DNA of 64,000 bases from Minisyncoccia bacterium (GCA_044234345.1 JBIIIW010000001.1:1766-65765); one strand, 5' to 3'. Counted from the first letter of the stretch, positions 39,242 through 64,000 are shown. A program made the numbers and translations. The notes: generated by a model from the sequence alone, not told the origin.

Positions 39242-40068
39242 ACCTCCTTAATCTCGGCTATAACCTCCTCTTTCTCTGGAGACTTCATACCAATCTCGTC
39301 TAACACACTCTGATTATTATATATCTCCATACAAAGCACAACACCCTTCTTTAATAGCTCCTTTTTGAATGTATTAGATATAGATACAAGACAAGTAAAA
39401 GGATGTAGATGTAGTTCTTCGATAATGTCCTGTAAGTTACCCTTTGCTGGATAGTTCCATCCCAACATCTTAACTCCATTACACTCTCCGTACTTAATTG
39501 CTTGTTCTGTAAACTTTGTATTAGTAATGAGCCAACCTTCTGTTAGTTTCCTCTGTATCCCTCCATAGTCGAACATATTACCCTTAAGGTCATCGAAACG
39601 AGCTTTGATGTACAGTACAACCTTAAGATCTGACTTCATATCAAGTTCATTATGGAACTTAGCTTCCACCATAACTAACTTGCTATCATTCCATGCTACG
39701 ATATCTACCTCATGAGGAACACATACACCAAGAACACTCTGATCAGTTAATGTCTGATATCCTCTAGCTTCAAACATCTTTGCAATATACTTCTCGAAAG
39801 GAAAACCATCTGGACCAAGTTCAGAGAGAGCTCTGCGAAGCGAATACTTTACAGCAACTGGTAGAGAATGACTTCTAAGTAGCTTAAATGCTCTAGAATA
39901 TATCTCACTAGTTGGCATACCGTCATACATCTCCTTACTTATATGGCCCAGTATTTCTTCTATAACCTCTTCACTACCTCCGGAGTTCTTTAGAGAATCA
40001 ATTAATTTATGTTCTTCGAATAATTCCTTTGTACCATCAGCCTTTGTAATTTGTATTAAGTGATTCAT
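39226..40068 (-). CDS. ATP-cone domain protein fused to an Mrr-like (PD-(D/E)xK) restriction-endonuclease domain
   Basis: The N-terminus (LIQITKADGTKELFEEHKLIDSLKNSG) is an ATP-cone. The C-terminus (VDIVAWNDSKLVMVEAKFHN) is a PD-D/ExK core. The chosen start ATG 40068..40066 overlaps the mnmA stop TGA (40067..40065) as ATGA. Confidence 0.7.
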   Translation of the reverse strand: MNHLIQITKADGTKELFEEHKLIDSLKNSGGSEEVIEEILGHISKEMYDGMPTSEIYSRAFKLLRSHSLPVAVKYSLRRALSELGPDGFPFEKYIAKMFEARGYQTLTDQSVLGVCVPHEVDIVAWNDSKLVMVEAKFHNELDMKSDLKVVLYIKARFDDLKGNMFDYGGIQRKLTEGWLITNTKFTEQAIKYGECNGVKMLGWNYPAKGNLQDIIEELHLHPFTCLVSISNTFKKELLKKGVVLCMEIYNNQSVLDEIGMKSPEKEEVIAEIKEVCGIE

Positions 40069-41114
40069 GCGGATATTATAGCACCACCTAAACATATATT
40101 TCCATCGTACATAACCAGAGACTGCCCTACAGATATATTGTCTTGTACGTTAGTAAACTTAACTGTATTACTGTCTACAAACTCTATCTCCTGTAGTGGT
40201 GCTCTGTATCTAGTACGAGCTAGTATCTTTCTTCCAATAGCTGGTACGCCCTGATTCCAGTTAACGTCCTTCACTTGTATAGTAGTTATTCCATTAGGTA
40301 ACTCACCCTCCAATCCCTTGTTAGCAACAGTTATTGTATTCTTCTCTATATCTTTGGATATTACATAATACGGCTCATCATTAGGAGTCTTCTTGATAAT
40401 ATCAAACCCATGTCTTTCACCTATGGTATAGAAAAAGGAACCATCGTGTGTACCAATTACATTTCCTTGTATATCAAGTACACCTCCTTTGTCTGGAGTA
40501 ATATAGTGAGACAAAAATTCTTTAATATCTATCTTACCTATGAAGCATAGTCCTTGGCTATCCTTCTTTAAAGCATTTGGTAAATCAAATTTCTTTGCTA
40601 ATTTACGTACCTCAGGCTTCTCGATGTTCCCAACCGGGAACAATGTCTTACTCAATTGTTCTTTATTAAGTGTCCAGAGAAAATATGTCTGATCTTTGTT
40701 CTTGTCTTCTCCTGCAACTAACTTTCCATCAATCACTTGCGCATAGTGTCCTGTAGCAACATAGTCAGCACCGTTCTTCATAGCATAGTTATAGAAACCA
40801 CCAAACTTTACATACCTATTACACATCACATCTGGATTAGGTGTTCTTCCGAGTTTATACTCACTAATCATATAGTCTACTACCTCCTCCTTGTATTCTT
40901 TCTCAAGATCTAGAGTTATAAAGGGTATATCAAGCTTAGCAGCTACTCTCATAGCATCTAACCTATCCTCTTTCCACGTACAGTTAATCCAGTCAGGTTG
41001 CCATACTTTAATGAATACACCAGTTACATCATAACCAGCTTTCTTAAGTAGTGCTGCGGATACAGAGCTATCTACTCCACCCGACATCCCTATATATACT
41101 TTCTTAGACTTCAT
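40065..41114 (-). CDS. mnmA: tRNA-specific 2-thiouridylase
   Basis: VYIGMSGGVDSSVSAALLKKAGYDVTGVFIKVW, a PP-loop, and overall MnmA architecture. Confidence 0.9.
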   Translation of the reverse strand: MKSKKVYIGMSGGVDSSVSAALLKKAGYDVTGVFIKVWQPDWINCTWKEDRLDAMRVAAKLDIPFITLDLEKEYKEEVVDYMISEYKLGRTPNPDVMCNRYVKFGGFYNYAMKNGADYVATGHYAQVIDGKLVAGEDKNKDQTYFLWTLNKEQLSKTLFPVGNIEKPEVRKLAKKFDLPNALKKDSQGLCFIGKIDIKEFLSHYITPDKGGVLDIQGNVIGTHDGSFFYTIGERHGFDIIKKTPNDEPYYVISKDIEKNTITVANKGLEGELPNGITTIQVKDVNWNQGVPAIGRKILARTRYRAPLQEIEFVDSNTVKFTNVQDNISVGQSLVMYDGNICLGGAIISA

Positions 41115-43889: not shown

Positions 43890-44936
43890 CTACGCCACTA
43901 CCTTAGAATCAGCTGGAGAATACTTACCATCCTTGTTCTTCTTGAAATGCTTCTGGTTCTGGATATTAACCATAATAGTGTTTTCCTTTACATATCTCTC
44001 CTTCATTACCTTTTCGATAATCTCATCTTTAGATAGAGGACCATGCTTCTCTAGTATGCTCTTTATAACATCCTTAACTACTCCTGACATATATCCCCAT
44101 TCACGTAGAGCGTATAGACCACGTCCTACAAGTACAAATCTCTTGTCTTTAATTAGTTCGTTATGAGTTGTTGCGATATGAGCCTTCTTCTTGAATATTG
44201 TAGTAATCTGCTTAGCAACCTCTTTGAAGTGTATAGGTGAACCATGCTTACGGATAACTAGGAATGCATAGTCTCTCATACCCTTTGTCTTGATATTTGA
44301 AGAATGAGATACTCCCCATTCACCCATAGCATTTTTACCAATCATCTTAGAAAGTGATAGCCAACGCTTAACAATCTCCTGATTCTTGTATTTCTCAGAA
44401 ACTTGCTCTAGATGTGACAGGAACTTGTTAACAATCTCTGATTCAACTAGTAGATCGTCATCTGAAAGTTCTCCATATAGCTTTTTTAGAGAGTCTTCAA
44501 CTTGTTTTGAAAGCTCTTCGTTTACATGCCATCTGTGCTTGAATTCATCATCCTCCTTTCTCTTCTTGAATACATCACCAATTACTAGTATGAAGTGTAT
44601 ATGATTCTGTAGTTCTAGATCCTTTGATGCATGTCCAAGGAAATCATCTTCAACAACAATTCCACCAAGAGAGTGTATTAGAGTCTCAAGTTCAGCAAAT
44701 GCAGCCTTCTCAGCCTTATATGCATCTGACTTACGGATATTAGCTAGAGCATAGTTCTCTATCTGACGTACTCTTTCACGAGTAATTCCATATAGTTTAC
44801 CTATAGCATCTAGAGTCATTTTCTCTGTACTCTTGCCTAGACCGTATCTTTTGACAAGGACTTCACGAGCACGATCAGGTAGCACTGAAAGCAGCTTCTT
44901 TGATGTTTGTTTTGGTTTGAATTGGATGTTTGCCAT
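43890..44936 (-). CDS. sigma-70 region-4 HTH domain protein with C-terminal HARE-HTH-like domain
   Basis: The N-terminus (LPDRAREVLVKRYGL...TLDAIGKLYGITRERVRQIENYALANIR) matches sigma70_r4. The C-terminus (HFKEVAKQI...DKRFVLVGRGLYALREWGY) matches the HARE-HTH signature found in the RNAP delta subunit. Confidence 0.6.
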   Translation of the reverse strand: MANIQFKPKQTSKKLLSVLPDRAREVLVKRYGLGKSTEKMTLDAIGKLYGITRERVRQIENYALANIRKSDAYKAEKAAFAELETLIHSLGGIVVEDDFLGHASKDLELQNHIHFILVIGDVFKKRKEDDEFKHRWHVNEELSKQVEDSLKKLYGELSDDDLLVESEIVNKFLSHLEQVSEKYKNQEIVKRWLSLSKMIGKNAMGEWGVSHSSNIKTKGMRDYAFLVIRKHGSPIHFKEVAKQITTIFKKKAHIATTHNELIKDKRFVLVGRGLYALREWGYMSGVVKDVIKSILEKHGPLSKDEIIEKVMKERYVKENTIMVNIQNQKHFKKNKDGKYSPADSKVVA

Positions 44937-45001: not shown

Positions 45002-48000
45002 TTAGACTACAATATTGATGATTTTGTTCTTAATAATTATTACCTTTTTAATCTCCTTTCCTTCTGTCCATTTCTTCACTTCATCCATATTCATAGCTAT
45101 GTTTTTGACATTCTCATCGCTATCATCCATCACTGTTTTTAGTATTCCTCTAGTCTTCCCATTTATCTGTACTGATATGGTCGCAGTACTTGATACAAGC
45201 ATACCTGGGTCATATTTAGGCCAATAACTGGCATGTACTGAACCCTTGTTCTTTAGCTTCGCCCATAACTCTTCAGTTACATGAGGAGCGAATGGTGCTA
45301 CCAGAGATATAACTACTTCGTAATCACTTTTTGTTATAGAGCTTTCTTTCTCAAATTGATTCAGAAGAATCATGATTGAACTTATCGCTGTATTGAACCT
45401 CATTTCCTCAATATCCTCACCTACCTTCTTTATCGTCTTATGCACCATCACTTGTGTCTCCTCACTAACCTTCGCATCTATACTTACCTTCTCTTGTAGC
45501 TTCCATATTCTTTCTATAAATCTTCTTGATCCAGCTATTGTATTTGTGTCCCATGCTATCGCTTGATCGAATGGACCCATAAACATTTCATGAACTCTTA
45601 GTGTATCTGCTCCAACTGTATTTACTATGCTATCTGGATTAATTACATTTCCCTTTGACTTCGACATCTTCTCTCCTCCTTCTGCTAATATTAGTCCATG
45701 TGATGTTCTCTTCTTGTATGGTTCTTTGGTCGGTACTAGTCCTAGATCGTACAGGAATTTGTGCCAGAAACGAGAGTATAGCAAGTGTAGAGTGGTATGC
45801 TCCATCCCACCGTTGTACCAGTCTACTGGAGTCCAGTATTCTAGATTCTCTTTTGATGCAAACATCTTTTTGTTACCTGGATCTGCATATCGAAGGTAGT
45901 ACCAACTAGATCCTGCCCAGTTTGGCATTGTGTCTGTCTCTCTTTTGGCTTTACAATCAAAATTAAAGTATCTGTGGATATCATCAAAACTTCTTAAGAT
46001 TTGTCTTTCTGGTAGTACTTCATTTAACTTATCAAATCCATTAAAGCCCCAAGAACAACCAATAATTTTTTCTCTATCAAGCAAATTTTCCAACTCAAAC
46101 ACATCTGCCTTAGTGTCAGTGAAGTAATGTATTTGCTTAACACCTACTCCCCAATCTTTGCAGACTCTCTCAATCTTGTCTTCTTTTGATTTCCCATCTT
46201 CGAATGATAGGACGTGTGTAAATTTAATTTTAGATTTTTTAAGTGTGTTCTTCACATACATACCTGATCCAGAAGAAACCACAGCACATTTTATGTTTTT
46301 ATACTTTTTAACTTCATTAATGAAATCCTCGAAAAGGTTGATCTCGTGTCTTATCATTTGTTCGCCAAAACTTCTGGACCATCTTACGTCCCTCTCTATT
46401 TCCTCAGTTGCTTGTACGGAATCTCTAGTGTGATGAGGTTTTTTACCAAAATACTCTTGCAGTTTAGAGATTGTTTCGTTCTTAGATTTATCCTCATCCA
46501 TTGCAAACCTTGCCTCTACTGTTGCATTCCATGTATCTCCTAGAACTCCATCGAAATCAAAGATAAAATATTTAATATCATTCTTCTCGGCTATACATTT
46601 TGGACACTTAGTATTTACCCATTTCTCTATAGAAGCGAGTGGACTCTCTCCAGTCTGACTTGGTTTGTAATTATCTATCTTAGGTAGTAACAGAGGTAAC
46701 TCCTTTTCAGGTAATGGCACTATTCCACACTTCTCACAGTGAACTACAGGTATTGGCTCTCCCCAATATCTTTGTCTTGAGAATATCCAGTCTCTTAGTT
46801 TAAACTTTGTTACCCATTTACCTCCTACGAATTCTGTAATTTCCTCCTTAACCTCTTCTGAGTTCCTGTTATTAAACCTATCAGAATTGATTAGTAGTCC
46901 AGATTCAGTTACTGCATGGTTATCATTCTGTAGTCTGTATAGCCATATATCTAATTCTCCACATTGCATTGTATCCTTACGTATATCCTTAAGTGGAAGC
47001 CATATTGGTTCATGCTTCTCATTCTCTTCAGTAGTTACACTATCTTTCTCTTCATTCTCTAATTCAAAGCATGCCACTTGGAAGTATGCAACTCTATTTT
47101 CATCTTTATGTGCAGCAAAGAATTCACTCTTCACTGTGCCTCCCAGAGTGTTAATATATTTTAAGTTCTTGTATCCTGTTTCCTCTAGTATCTCTCGTCT
47201 TGCTGCTGTCTCTACACTCTCATCTCCCTCTATTCCTCCAACGATGAATGTAGTCCAAGGTTGCTTCTTCCACTTCAGGCATAGTATTTTTCCAGTCTTT
47301 GGATCTCTTACAATTGCTTGTATTGCTCTTCTCTCTACTATCTTCTTCCCATCTCTGTGTGGATTAGTTAGATCGATTCTTACTGGCATAACGACATCTC
47401 GTATCTCAAGGCTATACTTTCTTGCAAAGTCGTAATCTCTTGTATCGTGTGCAGGAACTGCCATAACTGCACCAGTTCCATAGTCATTGAGTACATAGTC
47501 TGCTACCCAAACAGATATCTCTTCGTTATTAGCTGGATTAATTGCCTTTATACCCTTAATCTCTACTCCTGTCTTAACTGTCTTTGCATCTGTTCTCTCA
47601 ATATCTGTCTTCTCCTGTACTTCCTTAATGTATTTTGCAATCTCTATCGTATTCTCTGCATTTTGCATGAATTTAGATACCAGTGGGTGTTCTGGAGCAA
47701 GTACTACATATGTAACACCAAACATTGTATCTGGTCTTGTTGTATATACTTTTATCTTCTCCTCACTCGCCTTTATACTAAATTCAATTTCTGCACCTTC
47801 ACTTTTCCCTATCCAATTCCTCTGTTGTATCTTTATCTTCTCCAGGAAGTCTGTCTCATCTAGATCTTTGTCTAGTCTTTCTGCATATTTAGTTATTGCC
47901 AGCATCCATTGCTCCTTCTCCTTCTGCTCTACTTTTGTACCACATCTCTCACAACATCCGTCTATCACTTCTTCATTAGCTAATCCAATTAGATCCTTAG

Positions 48001-48478
48001 GACACCAGTTAATGGTTAGCTTCTTCTTGTAAGCTAATCCTTTCTTTAGAAACTGTAGGAATATCCATTGTGTCCATTTGTAGTACTTTGGATCTGTTGT
48101 ATCTATCTCTCTAGACCAGTCGAAAGAGAAACCTAATGCTTTTAATTGTCTTCTGAAGTTATCTGAGTTTGTCTTACTCACTATACTTGGCTGTATACCA
48201 GTCTTAATTGCATAGTTTTCTGTAGGTAGACCAAATGCATCCCATCCTATTGGGTAAAGTACATTGTATCCTTCTCTACGTCTCTTACGTGCAATGATAT
48301 CCATTGCTGTGTTACTTCGTATATGTCCTACGTGTAGTCCATCACCTGATGGGAATGGAAACTCTATTAATGCAAAGAATTTCTTCTTGTCCTTATCCTC
48401 CTTAACCTTGTTCGGCTTCTTCGACTCCCATACCTTCTGCCACTTCTTTTCTATTTTTATATGATCGTAGGGCTCCAT
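45002..48478 (-). CDS. leuS: leucyl-tRNA synthetase with inserted NUDIX and HAD-like domains and no canonical CP1 editing domain
   Basis: HVGH, [69 protein letters not shown]. Extra segments: NUDIX box [23 protein letters not shown] (about 46981..47401) and a HAD segment [10 protein letters not shown]...VVSSGSG...FTDTKAD (about 45946..46573). Only about 75 aa lie between TRPDT and GTGAVM, where CP1 normally sits. Confidence 0.9.
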   Translation of the reverse strand: [1158 protein letters not shown]

Positions 48479-52753: not shown

Positions 52754-53320
52754 TTAGTACTTGCGTACTACACCCTTAACAATTGCACGTATCTTCATAT
52801 CATTCTCAGGATATATTGGTCCGTAATTCTTATTAGCGGCCTCGAGATATACACTGTTACCTCTCTTCCTGAAGTACTTCATTGTCCATCCACCATCTAC
52901 CTCTGCAATTACTATGTCTCCATCCTTAGGATCATCTCTACGTTCCACTATTACTAGATCACCCTCCATAATTCCTTCTTCAATCATTGAGTCACCTTTA
53001 ACCTCAAGTAGGTATGATGACATCCTGTTTTTGATCAAGTAGCTATCTAGGCTTAATTTATCAAGCTCATTCTCTTCAGCTACTGTGGGTATACCAGCCT
53101 CAACTAGTCCAAGTAGGTTAACTTCCTGGAAAAGATTATTGGGTACTATCTTACCTGTACTATCCTTACTTATGACACCTATATCTATTAGCTTATTAAT
53201 TAATTTATATACTGAGTTCTTAGACTTGAAACCAAGAAGAGACATAACCTCAGCATAGCTGGGCATTCTCTTGTTCTTCTCGTAGAAAGAAAATATTTTG
53301 TTTTTATATTCCTCTATCAT
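52754..53320 (-). CDS. lexA: LexA-type transcriptional repressor (S24 peptidase)
   Basis: N-terminal winged HTH (YAEVMSLLGFKSKNSVYKLINKLIDIGVIS). C-terminal S24 domain with VKGDSM (Ser nucleophile) and WTMKYF (Lys). Confidence 0.8.
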   Translation of the reverse strand: MIEEYKNKIFSFYEKNKRMPSYAEVMSLLGFKSKNSVYKLINKLIDIGVISKDSTGKIVPNNLFQEVNLLGLVEAGIPTVAEENELDKLSLDSYLIKNRMSSYLLEVKGDSMIEEGIMEGDLVIVERRDDPKDGDIVIAEVDGGWTMKYFRKRGNSVYLEAANKNYGPIYPENDMKIRAIVKGVVRKY

Positions 53321-53328
53321 TATTATGA

Positions 53329-53526
53329 TTATAGTACAAAACTTGCAAATACATTAAATGTTCTCTTGAACCAACTTGATTTAGTTGTTTCGTAGAATCC
53401 GTAGAACTGTGATACTAGAAACTTATGTCTTCGAGCTTCTGCCTTGTATGGAAGTCCCTTTATGATTTTAAGATCGATATCATTATTCAATTTCTTTATT
53501 TCTCTAACTAATTGTATTTTACTCAT
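53329..53526 (-). CDS. small hypothetical protein, first gene of the lexA operon
   Basis: 65 aa with a hydrophobic C-terminus. Directly downstream of a LexA box plus TATAAT and 8 nt upstream of lexA. Confidence 0.4.
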   Translation of the reverse strand: MSKIQLVREIKKLNNDIDLKIIKGLPYKAEARRHKFLVSQFYGFYETTKSSWFKRTFNVFASFVL

Positions 53527-53565
53527 ATGTTTTTTAATTAATTTCTCTTATGAATATATTATAGG

Positions 53566-53579
53566 TGAACAATCGTTCA
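53566..53579 (-). promoter_or_regulatory. Cheo-box type LexA operator (tGAACaatcGTTCa) overlapping a TATAAT -10
   Basis: Sequence ggtGAACaatcGTTCacc read directly. It matches the Gram-positive consensus CGAACRNRYGTTCG in 12/14 positions. On the minus strand it is immediately followed by TATAAT and, about 35 nt later, the ATG of the small ORF. Confidence 0.6.
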
Positions 53580-53610
53580 CCTGCAAGAGAAAAGGTGGGG
53601 ATAAGTAAAA

Positions 53611-53631
53611 CCGCATGGGCACTCCATGCGG
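53611..53631 (-). terminator. intrinsic terminator after the sigma factor gene
   Basis: ccgcatgggcactccatgcgg with a U-run on the minus strand. Confidence 0.6.
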
Positions 53632-53643
53632 CTTGTGATTACT

Positions 53644-54540
53644 CTAACCTGCTGCCTCACATACCTTTCTTGCTATAAACGACTCTAGATCTGGGTCTTG
53701 CTCGGCGCTGTCAACATCAATTGCAACTCTGAGCTTCTTGAATGCTGCTGCCTGGATCTGACGAATCCGTTCCCTGGTGACTCCATAGAACTTACCAACC
53801 TCATCCAAGGTCATAGGATCAGAGTCGTCCAGACCGAACCTCAGCGTAAGTATTCTCTGTTCTCTTTTATCGAGTCTGCTTAAATGCTTCCGAAGTAGAC
53901 CAAGAAGATCTGACGATTCAATATCGTCAAATGGCATTTTTGCTGAGTGGTCAGCGAGAATGTCTGCAAGGGAGGTGTTATCGAAATCCCGAACCTGAGC
54001 CTCGAGATGTAAGTTTGGCTGCGCCCACTCAAAAACCATTCTTACATTATCCTCAGTTAGATGCGTTGCCTTTGCAATTTCTGCATGACTTGGTTCATAC
54101 CCGAGTTGCATTTGAAGTTTCTTCTCAGCTTTTCTTATCTTACCGAGACGAATCACCTGGTGAACCGGCATTCTCACATTCCTGACTTGGTTGGCGAGTC
54201 CGCGCTTAATTGATTGTTTGATCCACCACGCAGCATATGTCGATAGTTTCGCACCCTTAGCTGGGTTGAATTTATCAACTGCTCTCATTAGGCCAATATT
54301 GCCTTCGTTGATAAGGTCAACGAGTGGCAAACCGTAGTCGAGGTATTCTCGTGCGATTTTCACCACCAATTTGAGATTGCTTCGAATCATTGTTTCTCTG
54401 GCCTCTTTGTCGCCCATAGCAATTCTTCCTGCCAATGCAGTTTCCTGCTCTGGGGTCAGCAAATCGTGTTGGAGAGCGTCATTGGCATATAGCCTCATGA
54501 GAAAATCGTCGCCATCATCATATGTGCCTTCTTTTGCCAT
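53644..54540 (-). CDS. RNA polymerase sigma factor, RpoD-like (compact, regions 2-4)
   Basis: DLINEGNIGLMRAVDKFNPAKGAKLSTYAAWWIKQSI (r2), PVHQVIRLGKIRKAEKKL (r3.0), LTLRFGLDDSDPMTLDEVGKFYGVTRERIRQIQAAAFKKLR (r4.2). About 44% GC. Confidence 0.85.
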   Translation of the reverse strand: MAKEGTYDDGDDFLMRLYANDALQHDLLTPEQETALAGRIAMGDKEARETMIRSNLKLVVKIAREYLDYGLPLVDLINEGNIGLMRAVDKFNPAKGAKLSTYAAWWIKQSIKRGLANQVRNVRMPVHQVIRLGKIRKAEKKLQMQLGYEPSHAEIAKATHLTEDNVRMVFEWAQPNLHLEAQVRDFDNTSLADILADHSAKMPFDDIESSDLLGLLRKHLSRLDKREQRILTLRFGLDDSDPMTLDEVGKFYGVTRERIRQIQAAAFKKLRVAIDVDSAEQDPDLESFIARKVCEAAG

Positions 54541-57785: not shown

Positions 57786-59009
57786 CTATTTCTGCAACTT
57801 TATGAAGTTCTTTGTTCTTAAATTCTTATGATATGCAATTGCAAATCTATGAGCTTCGGAATTGGCTAATAGTATTGATTCGATATGGTCTTTATTTGTC
57901 TCTATATCTCCAAGATAGTGATCTGGCTTATGAGCGTCATTCTTAACCACTGAGACAATTGGTATATTAAGTGCGAATGAATCCATTACTTCCTTCGCTG
58001 CATTGTATTGCCCTATACCCCCATCAATTACTATGAGATTAGGCATTCTCCATTCAGGATGAGTGAATCTTCGTCTAAGTATCTCTCTAAGTCCTCCTGT
58101 ATCGTTATTAGCATCCTTACTAAGCTTAAATTTCTTGTATTCTCTCCTATTGGCCTCCCTATCAGTAACTACTGTCATTACACCCACAGTGTCTTTACCA
58201 GACATATGCGCTACATCATAAGCTTCAATCCTAAATCCAGTATCGCTATCACGCTCATTCTTGATTAATGATACGTCTTGTATGTGATTTAATGCATATA
58301 TTGTATCTCTAGTCTTCTTAGCTTGTTCGAAGTTCTCTATCTTGGCATACTCATCCATTTCTTTCTCTAGAGTTGATATGAGTTTAGATTTCTTACCTTC
58401 GAAGAAGAGTACTAGGTTACGTATTGTTTTCTTGTATTCATCACGTGCCTCTGGAGACTCTGTATTTGGCGACAAACCAAGGGATTTGTAGAAAGACTCT
58501 TGATGCTTAAGCTTAGCCTTCTCATCTCTATATGGAAATATCTTCCTAATTATCTTAAGTGCATCACGAAGAAGAGAACCCTGTGGATATGGTCCGAATT
58601 GATACTTAATCTTAAACCCTATCTCATCCTCATTAAGCTTATCCAACTCTCTACCTCTTACCATTACTAGTCTAGGAAACTCTTCATCAGTTATGACGAT
58701 ATAGTTATAGCTTCGGTTATCCTTCTCTTTGGTATTGTAATATGGTAAATGCTTCTTTATCTCATTACTCTCAAGAATTATTGCTTCTAGTACTGAGTCC
58801 GTCTGTATATATTCTACAGTACTAGCTTTTGTCACCATATCAACCAGTAGAGGTCCTCTAGTAGCTATCAAATCACTAGAGAAATAGCTTGAGACACGAT
58901 CATATAGAGAAGTAGCACGACCTATGTATAGGATGCTGTCTTCATTCTTGAAAAAGTATACTCCTGGAGTTTCTGGAAGATTTAGTTTTTTAAAATCTTC
59001 TAATTTCAT
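57786..59009 (-). CDS. uvrC: excinuclease ABC subunit C, short form lacking the C-terminal (HhH)2
   Basis: N-terminal GIY-YIG (PGVYFFKNEDSILYIGRATSLYDRVSSYF), a UvrBC-interaction region, and a C-terminal RNaseH-like endonuclease (LIVIDGGIGQ). 407 aa. Confidence 0.85.
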   Translation of the reverse strand: MKLEDFKKLNLPETPGVYFFKNEDSILYIGRATSLYDRVSSYFSSDLIATRGPLLVDMVTKASTVEYIQTDSVLEAIILESNEIKKHLPYYNTKEKDNRSYNYIVITDEEFPRLVMVRGRELDKLNEDEIGFKIKYQFGPYPQGSLLRDALKIIRKIFPYRDEKAKLKHQESFYKSLGLSPNTESPEARDEYKKTIRNLVLFFEGKKSKLISTLEKEMDEYAKIENFEQAKKTRDTIYALNHIQDVSLIKNERDSDTGFRIEAYDVAHMSGKDTVGVMTVVTDREANRREYKKFKLSKDANNDTGGLREILRRRFTHPEWRMPNLIVIDGGIGQYNAAKEVMDSFALNIPIVSVVKNDAHKPDHYLGDIETNKDHIESILLANSEAHRFAIAYHKNLRTKNFIKLQK

Positions 59010-61642
59010 TACTTTCTTTTTAATATTTTCTTCAGATACTGTCCTGTATATGACTTATCATTTTTTGCAACATCCTCAGGTGTACCCCTGGCTACTATCT
59101 TACCTCCTCTAGCTCCACCATCAGGACCAATATCAATTATATAGTCTGCTGACTTTATCAAATCTAAGTTGTGCTCAATTACTACCACAGTATTACCCTT
59201 ATCAACCAGTCTCTGTAATATCTCAATTAATTTCTTAACATCTTCATAATGTAGTCCTACTGTAGGTTCATCAAGTAGATATATTGTCTTTTGTAGATGA
59301 GCTCTGTATAGCTCAGAAGATATCTTAACTCTCTGTGCCTCTCCACCAGACAATGTTGTAGCTGATTGTCCTAGTTTTAAGTATCCTAGTCCCACTTCCT
59401 GTAAAGTCTGCAATCTATCTGAAACAGCAGGAATATCCTCAAAGAATTTCAATCCTTCCTCTACTGTCATTTCTAGTATGTCATACACACTCTTACCTCT
59501 GTACTTAACCTCAAGAGTTTCTTTCATAAATCTCTTACCATTACATACCTCACAAGGTACATACACTGTAGGAAGGAAGTGCATCTCTACTGCAATTTCT
59601 CCATTACCCTGACATGCTTCACATCTTCCACCTTTAACGTTGAAAGAGAATCTTCCAGGACCCCAACCATGAGCTTTGGCTTCTGAAGAGTTAGCGAATA
59701 GGTCACGAATGTGAGTCCACGATCCTGTGTATGTCACTGGATTTGATCTTGGAGTACGACCAATTGCACTTTGGTCAATCAATATTGTTCTTCCTAGGTA
59801 TTCAGCTCCAGAAAAACTCTCACAATTGAATATCTTAGCTGTTCTATGTCTAAACTCTAGTTTAGCTTCTAGATTCTTATGCAATATCTCATACATAAAT
59901 GATGATTTACCTGATCCAGATACTCCGGTTATGACATTAAGACAGTTTAGAGATATATCTGCATCCATGTTCTTAATATTGAATACATTACCTCCTCTTA
60001 CAGATATCTTACCCTTAGGTTCTCGTCTGTTTTCTGGTACTACAATACTATTCTCTCCTCTTAGGTATGACAAAGTTAGTGAATTACTATCATTCTTCTT
60101 TGCTGTAAGTAGCTCATCTAGATATCCAGATACAACTACATTACCTCCATGTACTCCAGCTCCTGGTCCAATGTCTATGATGTAATCTGAGGCAAACATT
60201 GTATCCTCATCATGCTCTACAACAATAATTGTATTACCAAGATCACGAAGACTTGTAAGAGTCTTAATTAATCTATCATTATCTCTCTGATGTAGACCTA
60301 TAGTTGGTTCATCAAGTACGTATAGCGCACCTACAAGTCCTGATCCTAATTGAGATGCAAGTCTAATTCTCTGTGCTTCTCCTCCTGAGAGAGTGTGAGC
60401 ACGACGATCTAGTGTTAGGTACTCTATACCAACATTAACCATAAACTGTAGTCTTGCCTCGATCTCTCTAAGTATCACCTTAGCAATTTCCTTCTCAGTA
60501 TCAGATAGCTTTATATCCTCGAAGAACTTCTTACTTTCCTCGATAGACATTGCTGTAACTGAAATGATATTAACACCACTTACTTTAACGTTAAGTGCTT
60601 CCTCTCTAAGTCTTGCTCCCTTACATACCTCACAGTCCTCATTACTGAAGAATTCCTTAGTACCAAGTCCATTACATGTAGCACAAGCACCGTATGGTGA
60701 GTTGAATGAGAAGAGTCTAGGCTCAATCTCAGGATATGAGAACCCATCGTATGGACACATGAACTTAACTGACATAAGTTTCTCTTCATCAGGGAATTCA
60801 ATCTTGATTAATCCCGATGCTTCTTCAATTGCTTTCTCAAGAGATTCAGATAGTCTCTCGCGAGCATTATCTACCTGTTTGTTCCTCTCACTGTTACCCT
60901 TACTTGCAGGCTTAAACTCACTTAGAAACATTTCATCAACAAGTACATCAATATCATGCTTCTTGTTCTTGTCGAGAATTATCTGCTCTCTAAGTCTCAT
61001 TACCTTTCCATCCACCTTTACTCTGTCATATCCTTTACCAAGTAGGTCATATAGCAATTGGTAATATTCTCCCTTTCTACCAACTACAATTGGAGCATAT
61101 ATCTTAACCTTCTGTTCATTAAGCTCAACTCCCATGACCTTCTTACCAGTCTTATTATGATTACTTACTTGCTTAATTATTGTCTCTAGTATCTCTTCCT
61201 TAGATATTCTGTGTATCTCCCTATTACATACCAAACAATGTGGCTTACCTACACGGGCAAAGAGAATACGTAGATAGTCATATATCTCCGTAATTGTAGC
61301 CACAGTTGATCTTGGATTGTTTGATCTAGATTTCTGATCGATAGATATGGCAGGAGAAAGCCCTATAATCTCATCTACATCAGGTTTCTGCATCTGCTTA
61401 AGGAATTGTCTTGCATATGATGAGAGTGACTCAACATATCTTCGCTGTCCTTCAGCAAATATCGTATCGAATGCAAGAGAAGACTTACCTGAGCCTGATA
61501 GTCCTGTTATGGCTACCATCTTGTTTCTAGGCATTTCTACACTTATATTCTTTAGGTTATGTGTCCTAGCACCTTTAACGATGATCTTTTCATCACCGCG
61601 TTCAGTATATTCTAGACCCTTGTTTATTGGCTTTTTAGACAT
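59009..61642 (-). CDS. uvrA: excinuclease ABC subunit A
   Basis: Two ABC ATPase modules (GLSGSGKSSLAFDT, GVSGSGKSS), zinc fingers, LSGGEAQR signatures. 877 aa. Confidence 0.95.
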   Translation of the reverse strand: MSKKPINKGLEYTERGDEKIIVKGARTHNLKNISVEMPRNKMVAITGLSGSGKSSLAFDTIFAEGQRRYVESLSSYARQFLKQMQKPDVDEIIGLSPAISIDQKSRSNNPRSTVATITEIYDYLRILFARVGKPHCLVCNREIHRISKEEILETIIKQVSNHNKTGKKVMGVELNEQKVKIYAPIVVGRKGEYYQLLYDLLGKGYDRVKVDGKVMRLREQIILDKNKKHDIDVLVDEMFLSEFKPASKGNSERNKQVDNARERLSESLEKAIEEASGLIKIEFPDEEKLMSVKFMCPYDGFSYPEIEPRLFSFNSPYGACATCNGLGTKEFFSNEDCEVCKGARLREEALNVKVSGVNIISVTAMSIEESKKFFEDIKLSDTEKEIAKVILREIEARLQFMVNVGIEYLTLDRRAHTLSGGEAQRIRLASQLGSGLVGALYVLDEPTIGLHQRDNDRLIKTLTSLRDLGNTIIVVEHDEDTMFASDYIIDIGPGAGVHGGNVVVSGYLDELLTAKKNDSNSLTLSYLRGENSIVVPENRREPKGKISVRGGNVFNIKNMDADISLNCLNVITGVSGSGKSSFMYEILHKNLEAKLEFRHRTAKIFNCESFSGAEYLGRTILIDQSAIGRTPRSNPVTYTGSWTHIRDLFANSSEAKAHGWGPGRFSFNVKGGRCEACQGNGEIAVEMHFLPTVYVPCEVCNGKRFMKETLEVKYRGKSVYDILEMTVEEGLKFFEDIPAVSDRLQTLQEVGLGYLKLGQSATTLSGGEAQRVKISSELYRAHLQKTIYLLDEPTVGLHYEDVKKLIEILQRLVDKGNTVVVIEHNLDLIKSADYIIDIGPDGGARGGKIVARGTPEDVAKNDKSYTGQYLKKILKRK

Positions 61643-61679
61643 AATATCTAACTATATCAATCTTTGGATAATAGGCAAA

Positions 61680-62477
61680 CTATGCCCTATACCTTTGTAT
61701 TAATGTATTAACCTCGTTAATTATCTCTGCAGGTGATACTGTAGCTTTAGTTATGAACTTATCAGCTCCTAATTCTATGCATTCTTCAATTATTCCATGT
61801 TTGTGGTTGTTTGATAGCATAATTATAGGTATCTTTTTAAACTGGGGTTTTGATCTGACCTTAACTAATATATCCAATCCAGTCATATCTGGGAGATTGA
61901 TATCAAGTATCATGATATCAGGCTTAGATATATCCAAGAATTCTAAAAATTCCTTACCGGTACTACCTTTAAGTAGTGTAAAACCACTTGATTGAAACTT
62001 CTTAGACAATATTGTACTTAGTAACTTATCATCATCTACCCACAATATCGTTTTACCCTTACCTATACTTGAACTTTCAGTAGTTTCGCTCTCAACTAGC
62101 GGTCCTCTACCAAAAACCTTATCAATCTTCTCCGCTACCTCCTCCGGAGCTACATGTAGCTTGATGATATAGTCTTTAACAACTGGTGTAGAAGGTATTT
62201 TCTTAATATGTATCGCTTCTCCTGAGTTAGAGATGATGATTACAGGTATCTTGGTGACATCTCTATCAAAACTCTTCTCATTTAGAACATCATACCCACT
62301 CTTGTTTGGTAATACTGTATCGATTAGTAGGATACTTGGTTTAAAATCCTTTAGACTTGGTATTACTGCATTTCCATCAGATACAGAACTTACTACATAT
62401 CCTGAGTTCGATAGATATGCTACTAGTCTCTTAGACAATTCTGGATCACTTAATGCAAGTAATACCTTTTCTTTCAT
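61680..62477 (-). CDS. response regulator with two tandem receiver (REC) domains and no output domain
   Basis: The second REC is canonical (ILWVDDD...IMILDINLPDMTGLDIL...IIMLS..K). The first REC is degenerate (LLIDTVLPNKSG). Confidence 0.75.
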   Translation of the reverse strand: MKEKVLLALSDPELSKRLVAYLSNSGYVVSSVSDGNAVIPSLKDFKPSILLIDTVLPNKSGYDVLNEKSFDRDVTKIPVIIISNSGEAIHIKKIPSTPVVKDYIIKLHVAPEEVAEKIDKVFGRGPLVESETTESSSIGKGKTILWVDDDKLLSTILSKKFQSSGFTLLKGSTGKEFLEFLDISKPDIMILDINLPDMTGLDILVKVRSKPQFKKIPIIMLSNNHKHGIIEECIELGADKFITKATVSPAEIINEVNTLIQRYRA

Positions 62478-62485
62478 TTGTAATA

Positions 62486-64000
62486 TTATACCATTCGTTT
62501 CTTAAGTGTAGCAATCTCATCTCGTATCAATGCTGCGGTTTCGAAGTCTAGTACTTTAACTGCTTCATTCATCTCTTCTTCCTTCATCTTAAGTAACTTC
62601 TTAGGATTCTCTGCTAACATCTTCTCATCTATTCTAACTAGTTCTTTTACAGCCTTATCATGTTCACTCTCTAGTTGATCAGTGATGTCTTGAATCTTCT
62701 TGATAATTGTTTTAGGAGTAATACCATTCTTAGTATTGTAATCAATCTGAATCTTTCTTCTTCTCTCTGTCTCCTTTATTGCATAGTTTAATGCATCATT
62801 CATGAAATCTGCATAAAGTATCACTCTTCCGTTTATATTTCGTGCTGCACGACCAATTATCTGTATTAGAGATGTTTGTGATCTTAGGAATCCTGCCTTA
62901 TCAGCATCAAGAATACCAATTAATGATACTTCAGGTAGATCAAGTCCTTCTCTAAGTAGGTTAACACCAACGAGGACATCAAACTTTCCTCTTCTAAACT
63001 CTGTAAGTATTGTAATTCTATCTATTGTCTTGATATCACTGTGCAAGTATTCTGATTTAATACCTTTCTCCTTAAGATATTCACTTAGATCCTCGGCCAT
63101 CTTCTTGGTTAGAGTTGTTGCAATTACTCTGTCTCCAGCCTTAATTACCTTCTCAGCTTCATCAATGAAATCAAATATCTGTCCCTTGTAACTACCATTC
63201 TCTGCTACAGGCTTAACAACCACCACTGGATCAATTAGTCCTGTTGGTCTTATAACCTGCTCAACTATCTGCTCACTATGCTCTATCTCAAACTTACCTG
63301 GTGTGGCAGTTGTATATATTACTTGTCCTACTGCTCTCTCGAATTCCTCAAACTTCATTGGTCTGTTATCTCTAGCTGAAGGTAATCTAAATCCATACTC
63401 TATTAGTGTATCTTTTCTGCTCGCATCTCCTGCGTACATACCTCCAATTTGAGGTACTGTAACGTGAGACTCGTCTATAACGGTAAGGAAGTCTGGAGTA
63501 CCATCTTTTTTATGTGGGAAGTATGATAGCAGTGAGTCAGGCGCTTCTCCTGGCTTCTTGCCAGAGAAATGTCTTGAATAGTTTTCGATTCCGTTACAAT
63601 ATCCAACCTCACGTATCAGTGCTAGGTCGTACTTTACTCTCCTCTTCAATCTCTCTGCTTCAAGATTCTTCCCAGCCTTCTCCAATTCCTTTAGTCTAGT
63701 CTCTAGTTCTGCCTTAATTGTCTCAAATGCCTTCTTGCTTTGTTCATCAGTACTTATGAAATGCTTTGCTGGGAAAAGAAATATCGTAGTATGCTCTTTC
63801 TTGATCGCCATTGTTACAGAATCTAGCTCTATAATCTTAGATATTGTACTAGCATCATACTCAATTCTGTATACAGTTCTCTCATTTACCGGCATTATCT
63901 CTATCATATTACCTAATGCTCTAAATTGCCCTGCGTTAATATCAGAATTAGTTCTTTCAAAGTGTATATCTATTAGTCTGCGTATTAAATCTGCTCTTGA
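62486..64000 (-). CDS. uvrB: excinuclease ABC subunit B, C-terminal about 500 aa (gene continues beyond window end)
   Basis: Helicase domain 2 motifs (VLVGVNLLREGLDLPEVSLIGILDADKAGFLRS, QIIGRAARN) and the UvrB C-terminal UVR motif (ETAALIRDEIATLKK). The reading frame stays open to position 64000 (...RADLIRRLIDIHFERTNSDINAGQFRALGN). Confidence 0.9.
   Translation of the reverse strand, partial: SRADLIRRLIDIHFERTNSDINAGQFRALGNMIEIMPVNERTVYRIEYDASTISKIIELDSVTMAIKKEHTTIFLFPAKHFISTDEQSKKAFETIKAELETRLKELEKAGKNLEAERLKRRVKYDLALIREVGYCNGIENYSRHFSGKKPGEAPDSLLSYFPHKKDGTPDFLTVIDESHVTVPQIGGMYAGDASRKDTLIEYGFRLPSARDNRPMKFEEFERAVGQVIYTTATPGKFEIEHSEQIVEQVIRPTGLIDPVVVVKPVAENGSYKGQIFDFIDEAEKVIKAGDRVIATTLTKKMAEDLSEYLKEKGIKSEYLHSDIKTIDRITILTEFRRGKFDVLVGVNLLREGLDLPEVSLIGILDADKAGFLRSQTSLIQIIGRAARNINGRVILYADFMNDALNYAIKETERRRKIQIDYNTKNGITPKTIIKKIQDITDQLESEHDKAVKELVRIDEKMLAENPKKLLKMKEEEMNEAVKVLDFETAALIRDEIATLKKRMV

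What the first reader, a model, noticed from the sequence alone, without database searches (positions are those of the whole stretch)
53329..53600. Canonical Cheo-type LexA box overlapping the promoter of a small-ORF-lexA operon
ggtGAACaatcGTTCacc (53564..53581) matches the Gram-positive LexA/DinR operator GAAC-N4-GTTC. On the minus strand it abuts a TATAAT -10 that drives a 65-aa ORF (hydrophobic C-terminus) followed 8 nt later by lexA. This indicates an autoregulated SOS operon whose first gene may be an SOS-induced small membrane-active protein, for example a YneA/SulA-like division inhibitor. It also gives a concrete operator motif with which to search the rest of the genome for SOS regulon members, which is of value if this lineage is poorly characterised. 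No similar box was seen near uvrA or uvrB inside this window.
Basis: partly seen in the sequence, partly recalled or inferred. Interest (0 to 1): 0.55.

Follow-up and report, generated by a model that had tools for sequence, protein, structure and literature searches.

The report
LexA operator and small-gene–lexA operon
The palindrome is very probably the LexA repressor's binding site in the promoter of a DNA-damage-inducible two-gene operon in an uncultivated candidate-phyla-radiation (CPR) bacterium, and its first gene encodes a conserved 65-residue protein of unknown function that is always found directly upstream of lexA.

Summary
On the minus strand, the perfect palindrome GGTGAAC-GATT-GTTCACC (53581..53564) fills the spacer between a weak -35 (TTGCAG) and a consensus -10 (TATAAT). 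This promoter precedes a 65-codon gene, and lexA follows 8 nt later. The host is a Paceibacteria-type Patescibacteria (CPR) bacterium.

- **Operator:** A weight matrix built only from other species' lexA promoters scores this site at 30.7 bits. The next best site in the 64 kb scores 11.1, which is shuffle level. The same -35/palindrome/-10 layout recurs upstream of lexA in about 30 of 36 related genomes, and the operator flanks co-vary with the LexA recognition helix.
- **Small gene:** It is real (dN/dS 0.07; 359 clusters at 50% identity). It has no match in any family or structure library. It sat immediately upstream of lexA in all 28 other loci examined.
- **Small protein:** It is a very basic helical hairpin with an amphipathic tail and no transmembrane segment. 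It is not a YneA or SulA homologue. Its role, as a division inhibitor or a LexA/RecA cofactor, remains open.
- **Extra element:** A DnaA-box consensus (TTATCCACA) lies upstream of the -35 at most of these lexA promoters.

An SOS network in Patescibacteria was already published in 2017, so the operator itself is ordinary. The small-protein family and the DnaA-like box are the new leads.

The parts
53611..53631 (-). Intrinsic-terminator hairpin (CCGCATGG-AGT-GCCCATGCGG, then TTTTAC) that ends the upstream sigma-70-family gene (54540..53644). It marks the upstream edge of the lexA-operon control region.
   Evidence: Sequence. Listed by the terminator scan (9 pairs, 6 G-C).
53596..53604 (-). DnaA-box-like element TTATCCCCA, one mismatch from TTATCCACA, 9 nt upstream of the -35.
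   Evidence: locates it. TTATCCACA with at most one mismatch, on the same strand, occurs at 28 of 34 related lexA promoters against 0.31 expected, and at 7 of 12 independent metagenome lexA promoters (6 on the same strand, 1 inverted). Its spacing to the operator clusters at 4-7, 12-16 and 23-25 nt. Binding by DnaA is inferred and was not tested.
53581..53586 (-). -35-like hexamer TTGCAG (3 of 6 matches to TTGACA). Orthologous promoters mostly have TTGAC here.
53564..53581 (.). LexA operator: the perfect palindrome GGTGAAC-N4-GTTCACC, which fills the promoter spacer and touches both hexamers.
   Evidence: Scores 30.7 bits against 11.1 for the next best window site. Conserved at lexA promoters in about 30 of 36 Patescibacteria loci. 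Its flanks co-vary with the LexA alpha3 helix.
53558..53563 (-). -10 hexamer TATAAT. Its first T is also the outermost base of the 20-nt extended palindrome.
   Evidence: TATAAT or TATACT occupies the same position in the orthologous promoters.
53329..53526 (-). First gene of the operon: a 65-aa, strongly basic helical-hairpin protein with an amphipathic C-terminal tail. It belongs to an unnamed family restricted to a Paceibacteria subclade.
   Evidence: ORF. Family of 557 clusters at 90% identity and 359 at 50% identity. dN/dS is 0.07 against L002. AlphaFold2 gives pLDDT 81 with helices 3-23, 28-49 and 52-64. No hit in Pfam, NCBIfam, PHROGs or PDB. Always directly upstream of lexA.
52754..53320 (-). 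lexA (188 aa): an N-terminal winged-helix domain and a C-terminal S24 self-cleaving peptidase domain.
   Evidence: TIGR00498 scores 124.2 bits against a cut-off of 110.95. PF00717 scores 94.5 bits. A75-G76, S111 and K148 are invariant.

Best explanation
This is the control region and coding part of a LexA-autoregulated SOS operon in a Paceibacteria-type CPR bacterium.

**How it most likely works**
- A LexA dimer binds the 18-bp palindrome GGTGAAC-N4-GTTCACC. The palindrome occupies the whole spacer between the -35 and -10, so bound LexA blocks RNA polymerase. This step is inferred from the anatomy and its conservation.
- After DNA damage, RecA-stimulated self-cleavage at Ala75-Gly76 by the Ser111/Lys148 dyad removes LexA. 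This step is inferred from the conserved residues and from established knowledge of the LexA family.
- The operon is then transcribed, producing the 65-aa protein and new LexA. Re-accumulating LexA shuts the operon off again.

**The small gene**
- It was inserted between the operator and lexA in one subclade. It thereby acquired SOS control without needing an operator of its own.
- Its product is a basic alpha-helical hairpin with an amphipathic Trp/Phe-rich tail.
- My leading guess (about 0.35) is an SOS effector that acts at the membrane or divisome, delaying cell division.
- Nearly as likely (about 0.3) is a LexA or RecA accessory factor.

**Second input**
- A DnaA-box-like element about 9 nt upstream of the -35 probably adds a second regulatory input to this promoter. 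This is inferred only.

The confidence given below refers to the operator and autoregulated-operon claim, not to the small protein's function.
For: - **LexA identity:**
- **Operator strength:** a perfect palindrome at the promoter, scoring 30.7 bits on a matrix trained on other species, with the next best window site at background level.
- **Conserved architecture:** the same -35/palindrome/-10 layout occurs at lexA in about 30 of 36 related genome loci, with exactly one strong site per locus. It also occurs at 11 lexA loci recovered by an independent metagenome pattern scan.
- **Position follows the promoter:** the palindrome lies 250-440 nt from lexA when the small gene intervenes and 27-47 nt away when it does not.
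- **Co-variation:** recognition-helix variants match operator variants. SKNAVYKL goes with GTGAAC, TKSAVHY with TAGAAC, and several helix changes go with GTAC-N4-GTAC.
- **Relatives with the same core:** the next most similar LexA proteins outside Patescibacteria in this scan, from Gallionellales and other Betaproteobacteria, carry GAACG..CGTTC upstream of their own genes. GAAC-N4-GTTC is the published LexA motif of Firmicutes, Actinobacteria and Gallionellales (PMC4951493).
- **One other SOS-type target:** the same 18-mer directly precedes a Y-family polymerase gene on metagenome contig L162.
- **Small gene is real and linked to lexA:**
Against: - No binding, cleavage or expression data exist for this organism. 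All regulatory steps are inferred.
- The -35 is weak (3 of 6), and the generic promoter scan did not call the promoter.
- Only one site was found in 64 kb, and none at the uvrB-uvrA-uvrC cluster. Regulon-wide enrichment could not be shown here.
- The training sites were chosen by a GAAC-N4-GTTC pattern, so the conservation of the core in the matrix is partly circular. The conservation of the flanks and of the position is not.
- For the division-inhibitor guess: the protein has no transmembrane segment and no homology to any known inhibitor. Some family members lack the tail altogether.
Confidence: 0.88

Rival explanations
1. The small protein is a LexA (or RecA) accessory factor made in a fixed ratio with LexA. 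It would bind LexA to strengthen operator binding or slow self-cleavage, as phage GIL01 gp7 does. Alternatively it would act as a co-repressor, like Acinetobacter DdrR with UmuDAb. On this reading it is not a cell-division effector.
For: - The gene is always the first gene of the lexA operon and was never found elsewhere. This held in 28 loci besides the window, whose flanking genes are otherwise unrelated.
- The spacing to lexA is tight: 8 nt here, and overlapping in L004.
- The small helical-hairpin fold would suit a protein-protein adaptor.
- There are precedents for small partners of LexA-type repressors: PMC4551915 and PMC7273328.
- Tail-less family members exist, so the conserved hairpin is the functional core.
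Against: - No sequence or fold similarity to any solved or viral structure was detected. All Foldseek E-values were 0.4 or higher.
- Sister clades run the same promoter, operator and LexA without this gene.
- An amphipathic Trp/Phe tail is odd for a DNA-bound cofactor.
Confidence: 0.3
2. The small protein has some other role, unrelated to both division and LexA. Examples are a nucleic-acid- or ribosome-binding stress protein, or a toxin-like membrane peptide, that merely rides on the lexA promoter.
For: - The mean net charge is about +7.6 and the motif ARRHK is conserved.
- The best, non-significant, PDB sequence match is ribosomal protein bS20, a basic RNA-binding helical protein, at E = 0.4.
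- The function cannot be read from homology.
Against: - Nothing positive supports it, and the bS20 match is at chance level.
- The strict linkage to lexA argues for a role tied to DNA damage.
Confidence: 0.3
3. The palindrome is not a LexA site. It would instead be an RNA hairpin (a terminator or attenuator for the upstream sigma gene) or the site of another regulator.
For: - In unrelated low-GC metagenome contigs, the same 18-mer occurs between an A-run and a T-run. That is the layout of a bidirectional terminator.
Against: - The sigma gene has its own G+C-rich terminator 30 nt upstream.
- Here the palindrome is flanked by the -35 and -10, not by T-runs.
- The arm sequence is conserved across species whose upstream genes are unrelated, while the 4-nt centre varies freely.
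- The operator changes track changes in the LexA recognition helix.
Confidence: 0.03

Closest known systems
Firmicutes/Actinobacteria LexA (DinR) with the GAAC-N4-GTTC 'Cheo' box and an autoregulated lexA gene
   Same: The GAAC-N4-GTTC dyad core is the same. The operator overlaps lexA's own promoter. LexA has the same architecture of a winged helix plus an S24 peptidase with an Ala-Gly site and a Ser/Lys dyad (motif as stated in PMC4951493).
   Different: The extended arms here are GGTGAAC/GTTCACC, whereas the Bacillus box quoted in the GIL01 paper is flanked as CGAAC...GTTCG. There is a single operator exactly filling the promoter spacer. The LexA N-terminal domain is divergent: PF01726 gives only E = 0.009, below its cut-off.
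Patescibacteria SOS network (Sanchez-Osuna, Barbe and Erill 2017, Environ Microbiol 19:3465)
   Same: The superphylum and the question are the same. The paper is cited as having documented the SOS response and a LexA-binding motif in this group (PMC8565304).
   Different: The paper is not in the held library. I could not check whether its motif equals GGTGAAC-N4-GTTCACC, or whether it noted the small gene or the TTATCCACA element.
Non-canonical LexA of Gallionellales and other Betaproteobacteria (Sanchez-Alberola et al. 2015)
   Same: Outside Patescibacteria, these were the most similar LexA proteins returned by the genome scan, at 31-41% identity. They were recovered through the same recognition-helix peptide pattern SKN[AS]VYKL. 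They carry GAACG..CGTTC upstream of lexA. GAAC-N4-GTTC is reported for Gallionellales (PMC4951493).
   Different: The flanks differ ((A/C)(A/G)GAAC rather than GTGAAC). They often have two tandem sites, and they have no small upstream gene.
SOS cell-division inhibitors encoded next to lexA (YneA, SosA, ChiZ/Rv2719c, DivS)
   Same: These are small, lineage-specific proteins under LexA control, and each is encoded adjacent to lexA. Adjacency to lexA was the clue that led to SosA (PMC6851548).
   Different: SosA is transcribed divergently from lexA (PMC6851548), and from my own knowledge so are YneA and ChiZ. Also from my own knowledge, they carry a transmembrane segment, and YneA and ChiZ carry a LysM domain. 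Here the gene is co-transcribed as the first gene of the operon. It has no transmembrane segment (best 15-residue Kyte-Doolittle mean 0.67) and no LysM or other domain.
Small partners of LexA-type repressors: phage GIL01 gp7 and Acinetobacter DdrR
   Same: These are very small proteins that work with a LexA-family repressor. gp7 binds LexA, enhances its DNA binding and inhibits RecA-mediated cleavage (PMC4551915). DdrR acts as a co-repressor (PMC7273328).
   Different: No detectable sequence or fold similarity. gp7 is phage-encoded, and DdrR is restricted to Acinetobacter.
DnaA boxes acting at promoters (TTATCCACA-type DnaA-regulated genes)
   Same: Thirteen of 34 related lexA promoters carry the exact 9-mer TTATCCACA, and 28 of 34 carry it with at most one mismatch. 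The strand is fixed and the distances to the operator are phased.
   Different: I found no report of a DnaA box at a lexA promoter in the held library. DnaA binding was not tested, and the window copy has one mismatch (TTATCCCCA).

Membership tests
LexA repressor (TIGR00498) | The full-length profile match exceeds the curated cut-off. | tested here: met
   124.2 bits against a cut-off of 110.95, covering residues 11-187.
LexA repressor (TIGR00498) | C-terminal S24 peptidase domain with a Ser/Lys dyad and an Ala-Gly cleavage site. | tested here: met
   PF00717 scores 94.5 bits. A75, G76, S111 and K148 are invariant in 24 aligned relatives.
LexA repressor (TIGR00498) | N-terminal LexA-type winged-helix DNA-binding domain (PF01726). 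| tested here: inconclusive
   PF01726 gives E = 0.009 and 16.2 bits, below its 23.7-bit cut-off. The region does align with the recognition helix of relatives.
LexA repressor (TIGR00498) | Binds a dyad operator in its own promoter (autoregulation). | tested here: met
   This rests on comparative evidence only. The palindrome is conserved in the promoter spacer of lexA across the clade, and it co-varies with the alpha3 helix. No binding assay was possible.
LexA repressor (TIGR00498) | RecA-stimulated self-cleavage after DNA damage. | not testable with these tools
   Only the catalytic and cleavage-site residues could be checked.
Cheo box / Gram-positive-type LexA operator | GAAC-N4-GTTC inverted repeat. 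| tested here: met
   GAACGATTGTTC on the - strand at 53578..53567.
Cheo box / Gram-positive-type LexA operator | Bacillus-type flanks (CGAAC...GTTCG, a 14-bp site). | tested here: not met
   The flanks here and across the clade are GGTGAAC...GTTCACC. The Bacillus form is as quoted in PMC4551915.
YneA/ChiZ-type SOS division inhibitors | Single transmembrane segment. | tested here: not met
   The best 15-residue Kyte-Doolittle mean is 0.67 in the window protein and 0.72 on average in the family. The tail is about 16 residues long and amphipathic.
YneA/ChiZ-type SOS division inhibitors | LysM domain, or sequence homology to YneA, SosA or ChiZ. | tested here: not met
   No Pfam or NCBIfam hit, for the single sequence or for 43 family members.
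YneA/ChiZ-type SOS division inhibitors | LexA-controlled and encoded next to lexA. | tested here: met
   The gene shares lexA's operator-bearing promoter and is always adjacent to lexA.
YneA/ChiZ-type SOS division inhibitors | Blocks cell division when expressed. | not testable with these tools
   This needs an expression experiment.
SulA | Homology to the SulA family. | tested here: not met
   No Pfam hit at E up to 1.
GIL01 gp7-like LexA cofactors | Sequence or fold similarity to gp7. | tested here: not met
   No gp7 entry appeared among the PDB profile hits at E up to 10, the PDB and viral Foldseek hits, or the PHROGs hits.
GIL01 gp7-like LexA cofactors | Physical binding to LexA. | not testable with these tools
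   No multimer prediction or assay was available.
DnaA box | Match to the 9-mer TTATCCACA. | tested here: met
   The window has TTATCCCCA, one mismatch. Thirteen of 34 orthologous promoters are exact and 28 of 34 have at most one mismatch, against 0.31 expected.
DnaA box | Bound by DnaA. | not testable with these tools
   No DnaA gene or origin lies in the window, and no assay was possible.

The most novel reading that the evidence does not exclude
In one Paceibacteria subclade, the SOS master operon has acquired a previously undescribed small helical-hairpin protein. It would be either a new kind of SOS checkpoint effector or a built-in LexA/RecA cofactor. In addition, lexA promoters across the wider class carry a phased DnaA box. 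This would wire replication-initiator status directly into SOS control, a link I did not find reported for any lexA promoter.
Probability: 0.3. Interest if true: 0.7.

Novelty: new variant of a known kind. Interest (0 to 1): 0.45.

Why it matters
CPR/Patescibacteria are uncultivated, have very small genomes and have few recognisable regulators. A firmly anchored operator, with the consensus AGGTGAAC-N4-GTTCACCT, gives a usable matrix for mapping their SOS regulons in metagenomes. The small protein is one of very few CPR genes of unknown function for which both the inducing signal (DNA damage) and the regulatory partner (LexA) can be named. It is therefore a tractable target. Expressing it in a model bacterium, or testing its binding to LexA, RecA, FtsZ or FtsA, could reveal how these ultra-small cells arrest or recover after DNA damage. 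If the TTATCCACA element binds DnaA, it would be an example of replication-initiation status feeding into lexA transcription.

Tried and rejected
- **Generic promoter scan:** It missed the promoter because of the weak -35. I relied on cross-species alignment instead.
- **Other exact GAAC-N4-GTTC copies in the window:** All three are intragenic, in dnaK, leuS and an unknown ORF, and score at background. I rejected them as operators.
- **recA or other SOS genes in the window:** None found.
- **uvrB promoter on an overlapping contig (L083):** No box.
- **Family and structure searches for the small protein:** Pfam, NCBIfam and PHROGs, on the single sequence and on 43 members, a PDB profile search, and Foldseek against PDB and BFVD all found only generic helical hairpins at E of 0.4 or higher. 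The afdb50 library was unavailable.
- **Exhaustive profile search of 1.84 billion representatives:** It found only stand-alone small proteins of 48-147 aa. The longer ones are upstream-extended ORF calls that translate the operator as G-E-R/H-S/T-F-T-Y. There are no domain fusions to hint at function.
- **Metagenome scan with the 18-mer:** Most of the 120 hits were chance matches in high-GC contigs or terminator-like hairpins. Eleven contigs carried lexA beside the palindrome, one more (L121) carried only the small gene at its cut end, and one was a dinB-like promoter. The scan could not define the regulon.
- **The 2017 Patescibacteria SOS paper and the 2015 Betaproteobacteria paper:** Neither is held. 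What I say about their content beyond their titles and how they are cited is from memory and unverified.
- **TTATCCACA as a general promoter element of this genome:** Rejected. The window has 14 near-matches against 20 expected, and only this one lies at a promoter.

Full report
**1. What is in the sequence**

Read on the minus strand, the region has the following order.
- A sigma-70-family gene (54540..53644) ends with a G+C-rich terminator hairpin (53631..53611).
- Next comes TTATCCCCA (53604..53596).
- Nine nucleotides later comes TTGCAG (53586..53581).
- The perfect palindrome GGTGAAC-GATT-GTTCACC (53581..53564) follows.
- TATAAT (53563..53558) abuts the palindrome.
- About 30 nt further on is the ATG of a 65-codon ORF (53526..53329).
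- Eight nucleotides after its stop, a 188-codon ORF begins (53320..52754).
- Inorganic pyrophosphatase and glucose-6-phosphate dehydrogenase genes lie downstream.

**2. The 188-aa protein is LexA, and the host is a CPR bacterium**
- The protein passes the curated LexA equivalog model (TIGR00498, 124.2 bits against a cut-off of 110.95). It has an S24 peptidase domain scoring 94.5 bits.
- In an alignment with 23 relatives, the Ala75-Gly76 cleavage site, Ser111 and Lys148 are invariant.
- The Pfam model for the LexA DNA-binding domain matches only weakly (E = 0.009), so the N-terminal domain is divergent.
- The named relatives come from Candidatus Taylorbacteria, Zambryskibacteria and Paceibacterota. 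The window therefore comes from a Paceibacteria-type member of the Patescibacteria/CPR.

**3. Is the palindrome more than chance, and is it the LexA operator?**
- Exact GAAC-N4-GTTC occurs four times in the window against 0.68 expected. Three of these lie inside dnaK, leuS and an unknown ORF and lack the extended arms.
- I collected lexA loci from 36 Patescibacteria genomes. GAAC-N4-GTTC, nearly always as GGTGAAC-N4-GTTCACC, lies upstream of lexA in about 30 of them. Most of the rest have a one- or two-base variant.
- The architecture is the same each time. TTGAC or TTGC comes first, the palindrome fills the 17-18-nt spacer, and TATAAT or TATACT follows. The sequences between and around these blocks do not align.
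- A weight matrix built from the 33 sites of other species scores the window site at 30.7 bits. The next best site in 64 kb scores 11.1, and the maxima of shuffled sequences averaged 11.7.
- Each related locus has exactly one strong site, at the lexA-operon promoter.
- The operator follows the promoter rather than lexA itself. It lies 250-440 nt from lexA where a small gene intervenes and 27-47 nt away where none does.
- The operator co-varies with the LexA recognition helix. SKNAVYKL goes with GTGAAC...GTTCAC. TKSAVHY-type helices go with TAGAAC...GTTCTA. Several independent helix changes go with GTAC-N4-GTAC.
- Outside Patescibacteria, the most similar LexA proteins in this scan are from Gallionellales and other Betaproteobacteria. 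They carry GAACG..CGTTC upstream of their own genes.
- GAAC-N4-GTTC is the published LexA motif for Firmicutes, Actinobacteria and Gallionellales (PMC4951493).

Taken together, this is strong comparative evidence that the palindrome is the LexA operator. Because it occupies the promoter spacer, bound LexA would exclude RNA polymerase. Binding, cleavage and induction themselves are inferred and have not been shown.

**4. The regulon question**
- The window holds no recA or translesion polymerase gene.
- uvrA and uvrC lie in a uvrB-response regulator-uvrA-uvrC cluster whose promoter is beyond the window end.
- On an overlapping contig, the 190 nt upstream of uvrB contain no site. Nucleotide excision repair therefore does not appear to be under this operator here.
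- A metagenome-wide scan with the 18-mer was dominated by chance matches and terminator-like hairpins. It recovered 11 more contigs with lexA beside the palindrome, one with only the small gene at its cut end, and one low-GC contig (L162) where the palindrome directly precedes a Y-family polymerase gene.
- Genome-wide enrichment could not be tested with the data available.

**5. The small gene**

It is a real gene.
- Homologues occupy the same position in 19 of the genome loci.
- They also occur in three further contigs with unrelated flanking genes and in six metagenome contigs.
- No homologue was found away from lexA.
- dN/dS against the closest locus is 0.07.
- The family has 557 clusters at 90% identity and 359 at 50% identity. 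All members are stand-alone proteins of 48-147 aa, labelled 'hypothetical' where named, and all come from this lineage.
- Three over-extended ORF calls translate the operator itself (G-E-R/H-S/T-F-T-Y). This shows that the box is present in those distant members too.

The gene is absent from more distant Paceibacteria (LexA identity of about 56% or less), whose lexA promoters are otherwise the same. It was therefore inserted between the operator and lexA in one subclade.

The consensus is MSKxNLEKxLRxELExLNxxIDxKIIKGLSYxREARRHKFLLSQL...SxWFxRSFxxxSxFxx. E9, N14, I17, D18, I21, G24, Y27, R33 and H34 are invariant.

AlphaFold2 with this alignment gives a confident helical hairpin (helices 3-23 and 28-49, pLDDT above 90). 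It also gives a low-confidence C-terminal helix.

The protein is strongly basic, with a mean net charge of about +7.6. Its tail is about 16 residues long, rich in Trp and Phe, and amphipathic (hydrophobic moment 0.44 in the window protein). The tail is too short and too weakly hydrophobic to span a membrane, and some members lack it.

Nothing significant was found in Pfam, NCBIfam, PHROGs, PDB sequences, or the PDB and viral structure libraries.

**6. What the small protein might do**

Two known patterns fit.
- **Division inhibitor.** SOS-induced cell-division inhibitors of Gram-positive bacteria are small, lineage-specific and encoded next to lexA. That adjacency was the clue that identified SosA (PMC6851548). 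The amphipathic tail could target the membrane or act as a degradation signal. However, SosA is transcribed divergently from lexA. From my own knowledge, the known inhibitors also carry a transmembrane segment, and YneA and ChiZ carry LysM. None of these features is present here. The protein is therefore not a member of those families.
- **Repressor partner.** Small partners of LexA-type repressors exist. GIL01 gp7 binds LexA, enhances its DNA binding and slows RecA-mediated cleavage (PMC4551915). DdrR is a co-repressor with UmuDAb (PMC7273328). Strict co-transcription and tight spacing with lexA fit this pattern, but no similarity to gp7 was detectable.

I put the division or checkpoint effector reading at about 0.35, a LexA/RecA cofactor at about 0.3, and something else at about 0.3-0.35.

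**7. An unexpected second element**

The 9-mer TTATCCACA, the textbook DnaA-box consensus (from my own knowledge), lies just upstream of the -35 at these lexA promoters.
- It is exact in 13 of 34 genome loci and within one mismatch in 28 of 34, always on the same strand. Only 0.31 loci would be expected from the background rate in the same loci.
- In the independent set of 12 metagenome promoters of lexA or its small-gene operon, it occurs in seven, one of them inverted.
- It is present whether or not the small gene is present.
- Its distance to the operator falls into three groups: 4-7, 12-16 and 23-25 nt. There is nothing in between, which suggests helical phasing. The loci are phylogenetically related, so this is not a formal test.
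- It is not a general promoter element of this genome. The window has 14 near-matches against 20 expected, and only this one lies at a promoter.
- It is absent from the dinB-like promoter on L162.
- No held paper mentions both 'DnaA box' and 'lexA promoter'.

The window copy is TTATCCCCA. DnaA binding was not tested.

**8. Novelty and verdict**

An autoregulated lexA gene with a GAAC-N4-GTTC-type operator is a well-known arrangement. The SOS network of the Patescibacteria has been published (Sanchez-Osuna et al. 2017, cited in PMC8565304). I could not read that paper, so I cannot say whether it reports this exact motif.

Three things appear to go beyond the ordinary.
- The lineage-specific extended consensus, and the way the operator exactly fills the promoter spacer.
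- An unnamed small-protein family that was always the first gene of the lexA operon in the loci examined.
- The DnaA-box-like element.

I rate the finding as a new variant of a known kind and of moderate interest.

Noticed in passing
window 53596..53604 (- strand), and upstream of lexA in L002-L034, L052, L084, L086, L088, L106, L142, L161, L172, L178, L181 and L209: The DnaA-box consensus TTATCCACA lies just upstream of the -35 of lexA promoters. It occurs in 28 of 34 genome loci with at most one mismatch against 0.31 expected, and in 7 of 12 independent metagenome promoters. Its distance to the operator clusters at 4-7, 12-16 and 23-25 nt. It is not a general promoter element in the window.
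   Followed up: partly
window 45002..48478 (- strand): A leucyl-tRNA synthetase ORF of 1158 aa has NUDIX (residues 383-501) and HAD-like hydrolase (639-793) Pfam matches. They lie between the editing domain and the anticodon-binding domain, which is an unusual insertion or fusion.
   Followed up: no
window 57786..64000 (- strand); L083 1..7303: The nucleotide-excision-repair genes form a uvrB-response regulator (two receiver stretches)-uvrA-uvrC cluster. No LexA box lies upstream of uvrB, and a regulator-like gene is embedded in the cluster. This hints at LexA-independent control.
   Followed up: partly
window 39226..40095 (- strand): An ORF combines an ATP-cone domain with an Mrr-type restriction-endonuclease catalytic domain.
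   Followed up: no
window 43890..44936 (- strand): A 348-aa ORF has a sigma-70 region 4 match at its N-terminus and a HARE-HTH domain further on. This is an unusual combination.
   Followed up: no
L021, L035, L039, L042, L046, L059; L029, L032, L034, L052: Operator variants track changes in the LexA recognition helix. GTAC-N4-GTAC replaces GAAC-N4-GTTC in six loci, and TAGAAC flanks go with a TKSAVHY-type helix in four loci. This is a natural specificity-switch series.
   Followed up: partly
L162 6784..8077: GGTGAACAACTGTTCACC lies directly before a Y-family (IMS/DinB-like) polymerase gene on a 38% GC metagenome contig. It is a likely second member of this kind of SOS regulon. No TTATCCACA lies upstream of it.
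   Followed up: partly
L183 4794..4825: The same 18-nt palindrome lies 3 nt from a TTATCCACA (on the opposite strand of the locus), upstream of an N6/N4 DNA methyltransferase gene.
   Followed up: no
L096, L140, L150, L171 (also L144, L173, L188): In unrelated low-GC metagenome contigs the palindrome is flanked by A6 and T6 runs, which makes a terminator-like hairpin. In L096, L140, L150 and L171 it is preceded by a repeated sequence, gttaagttcatggtagatttggggc, and it occurs twice per contig in L150 and L171. This may be a repeated element.
   Followed up: no
window 53644..54540 (- strand): The gene upstream of the operon is a 298-aa group-1/2-like sigma-70 factor. It falls below the RpoD and RpoS equivalog cut-offs and lies in a stretch with slightly higher G+C than its surroundings.
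   Followed up: no
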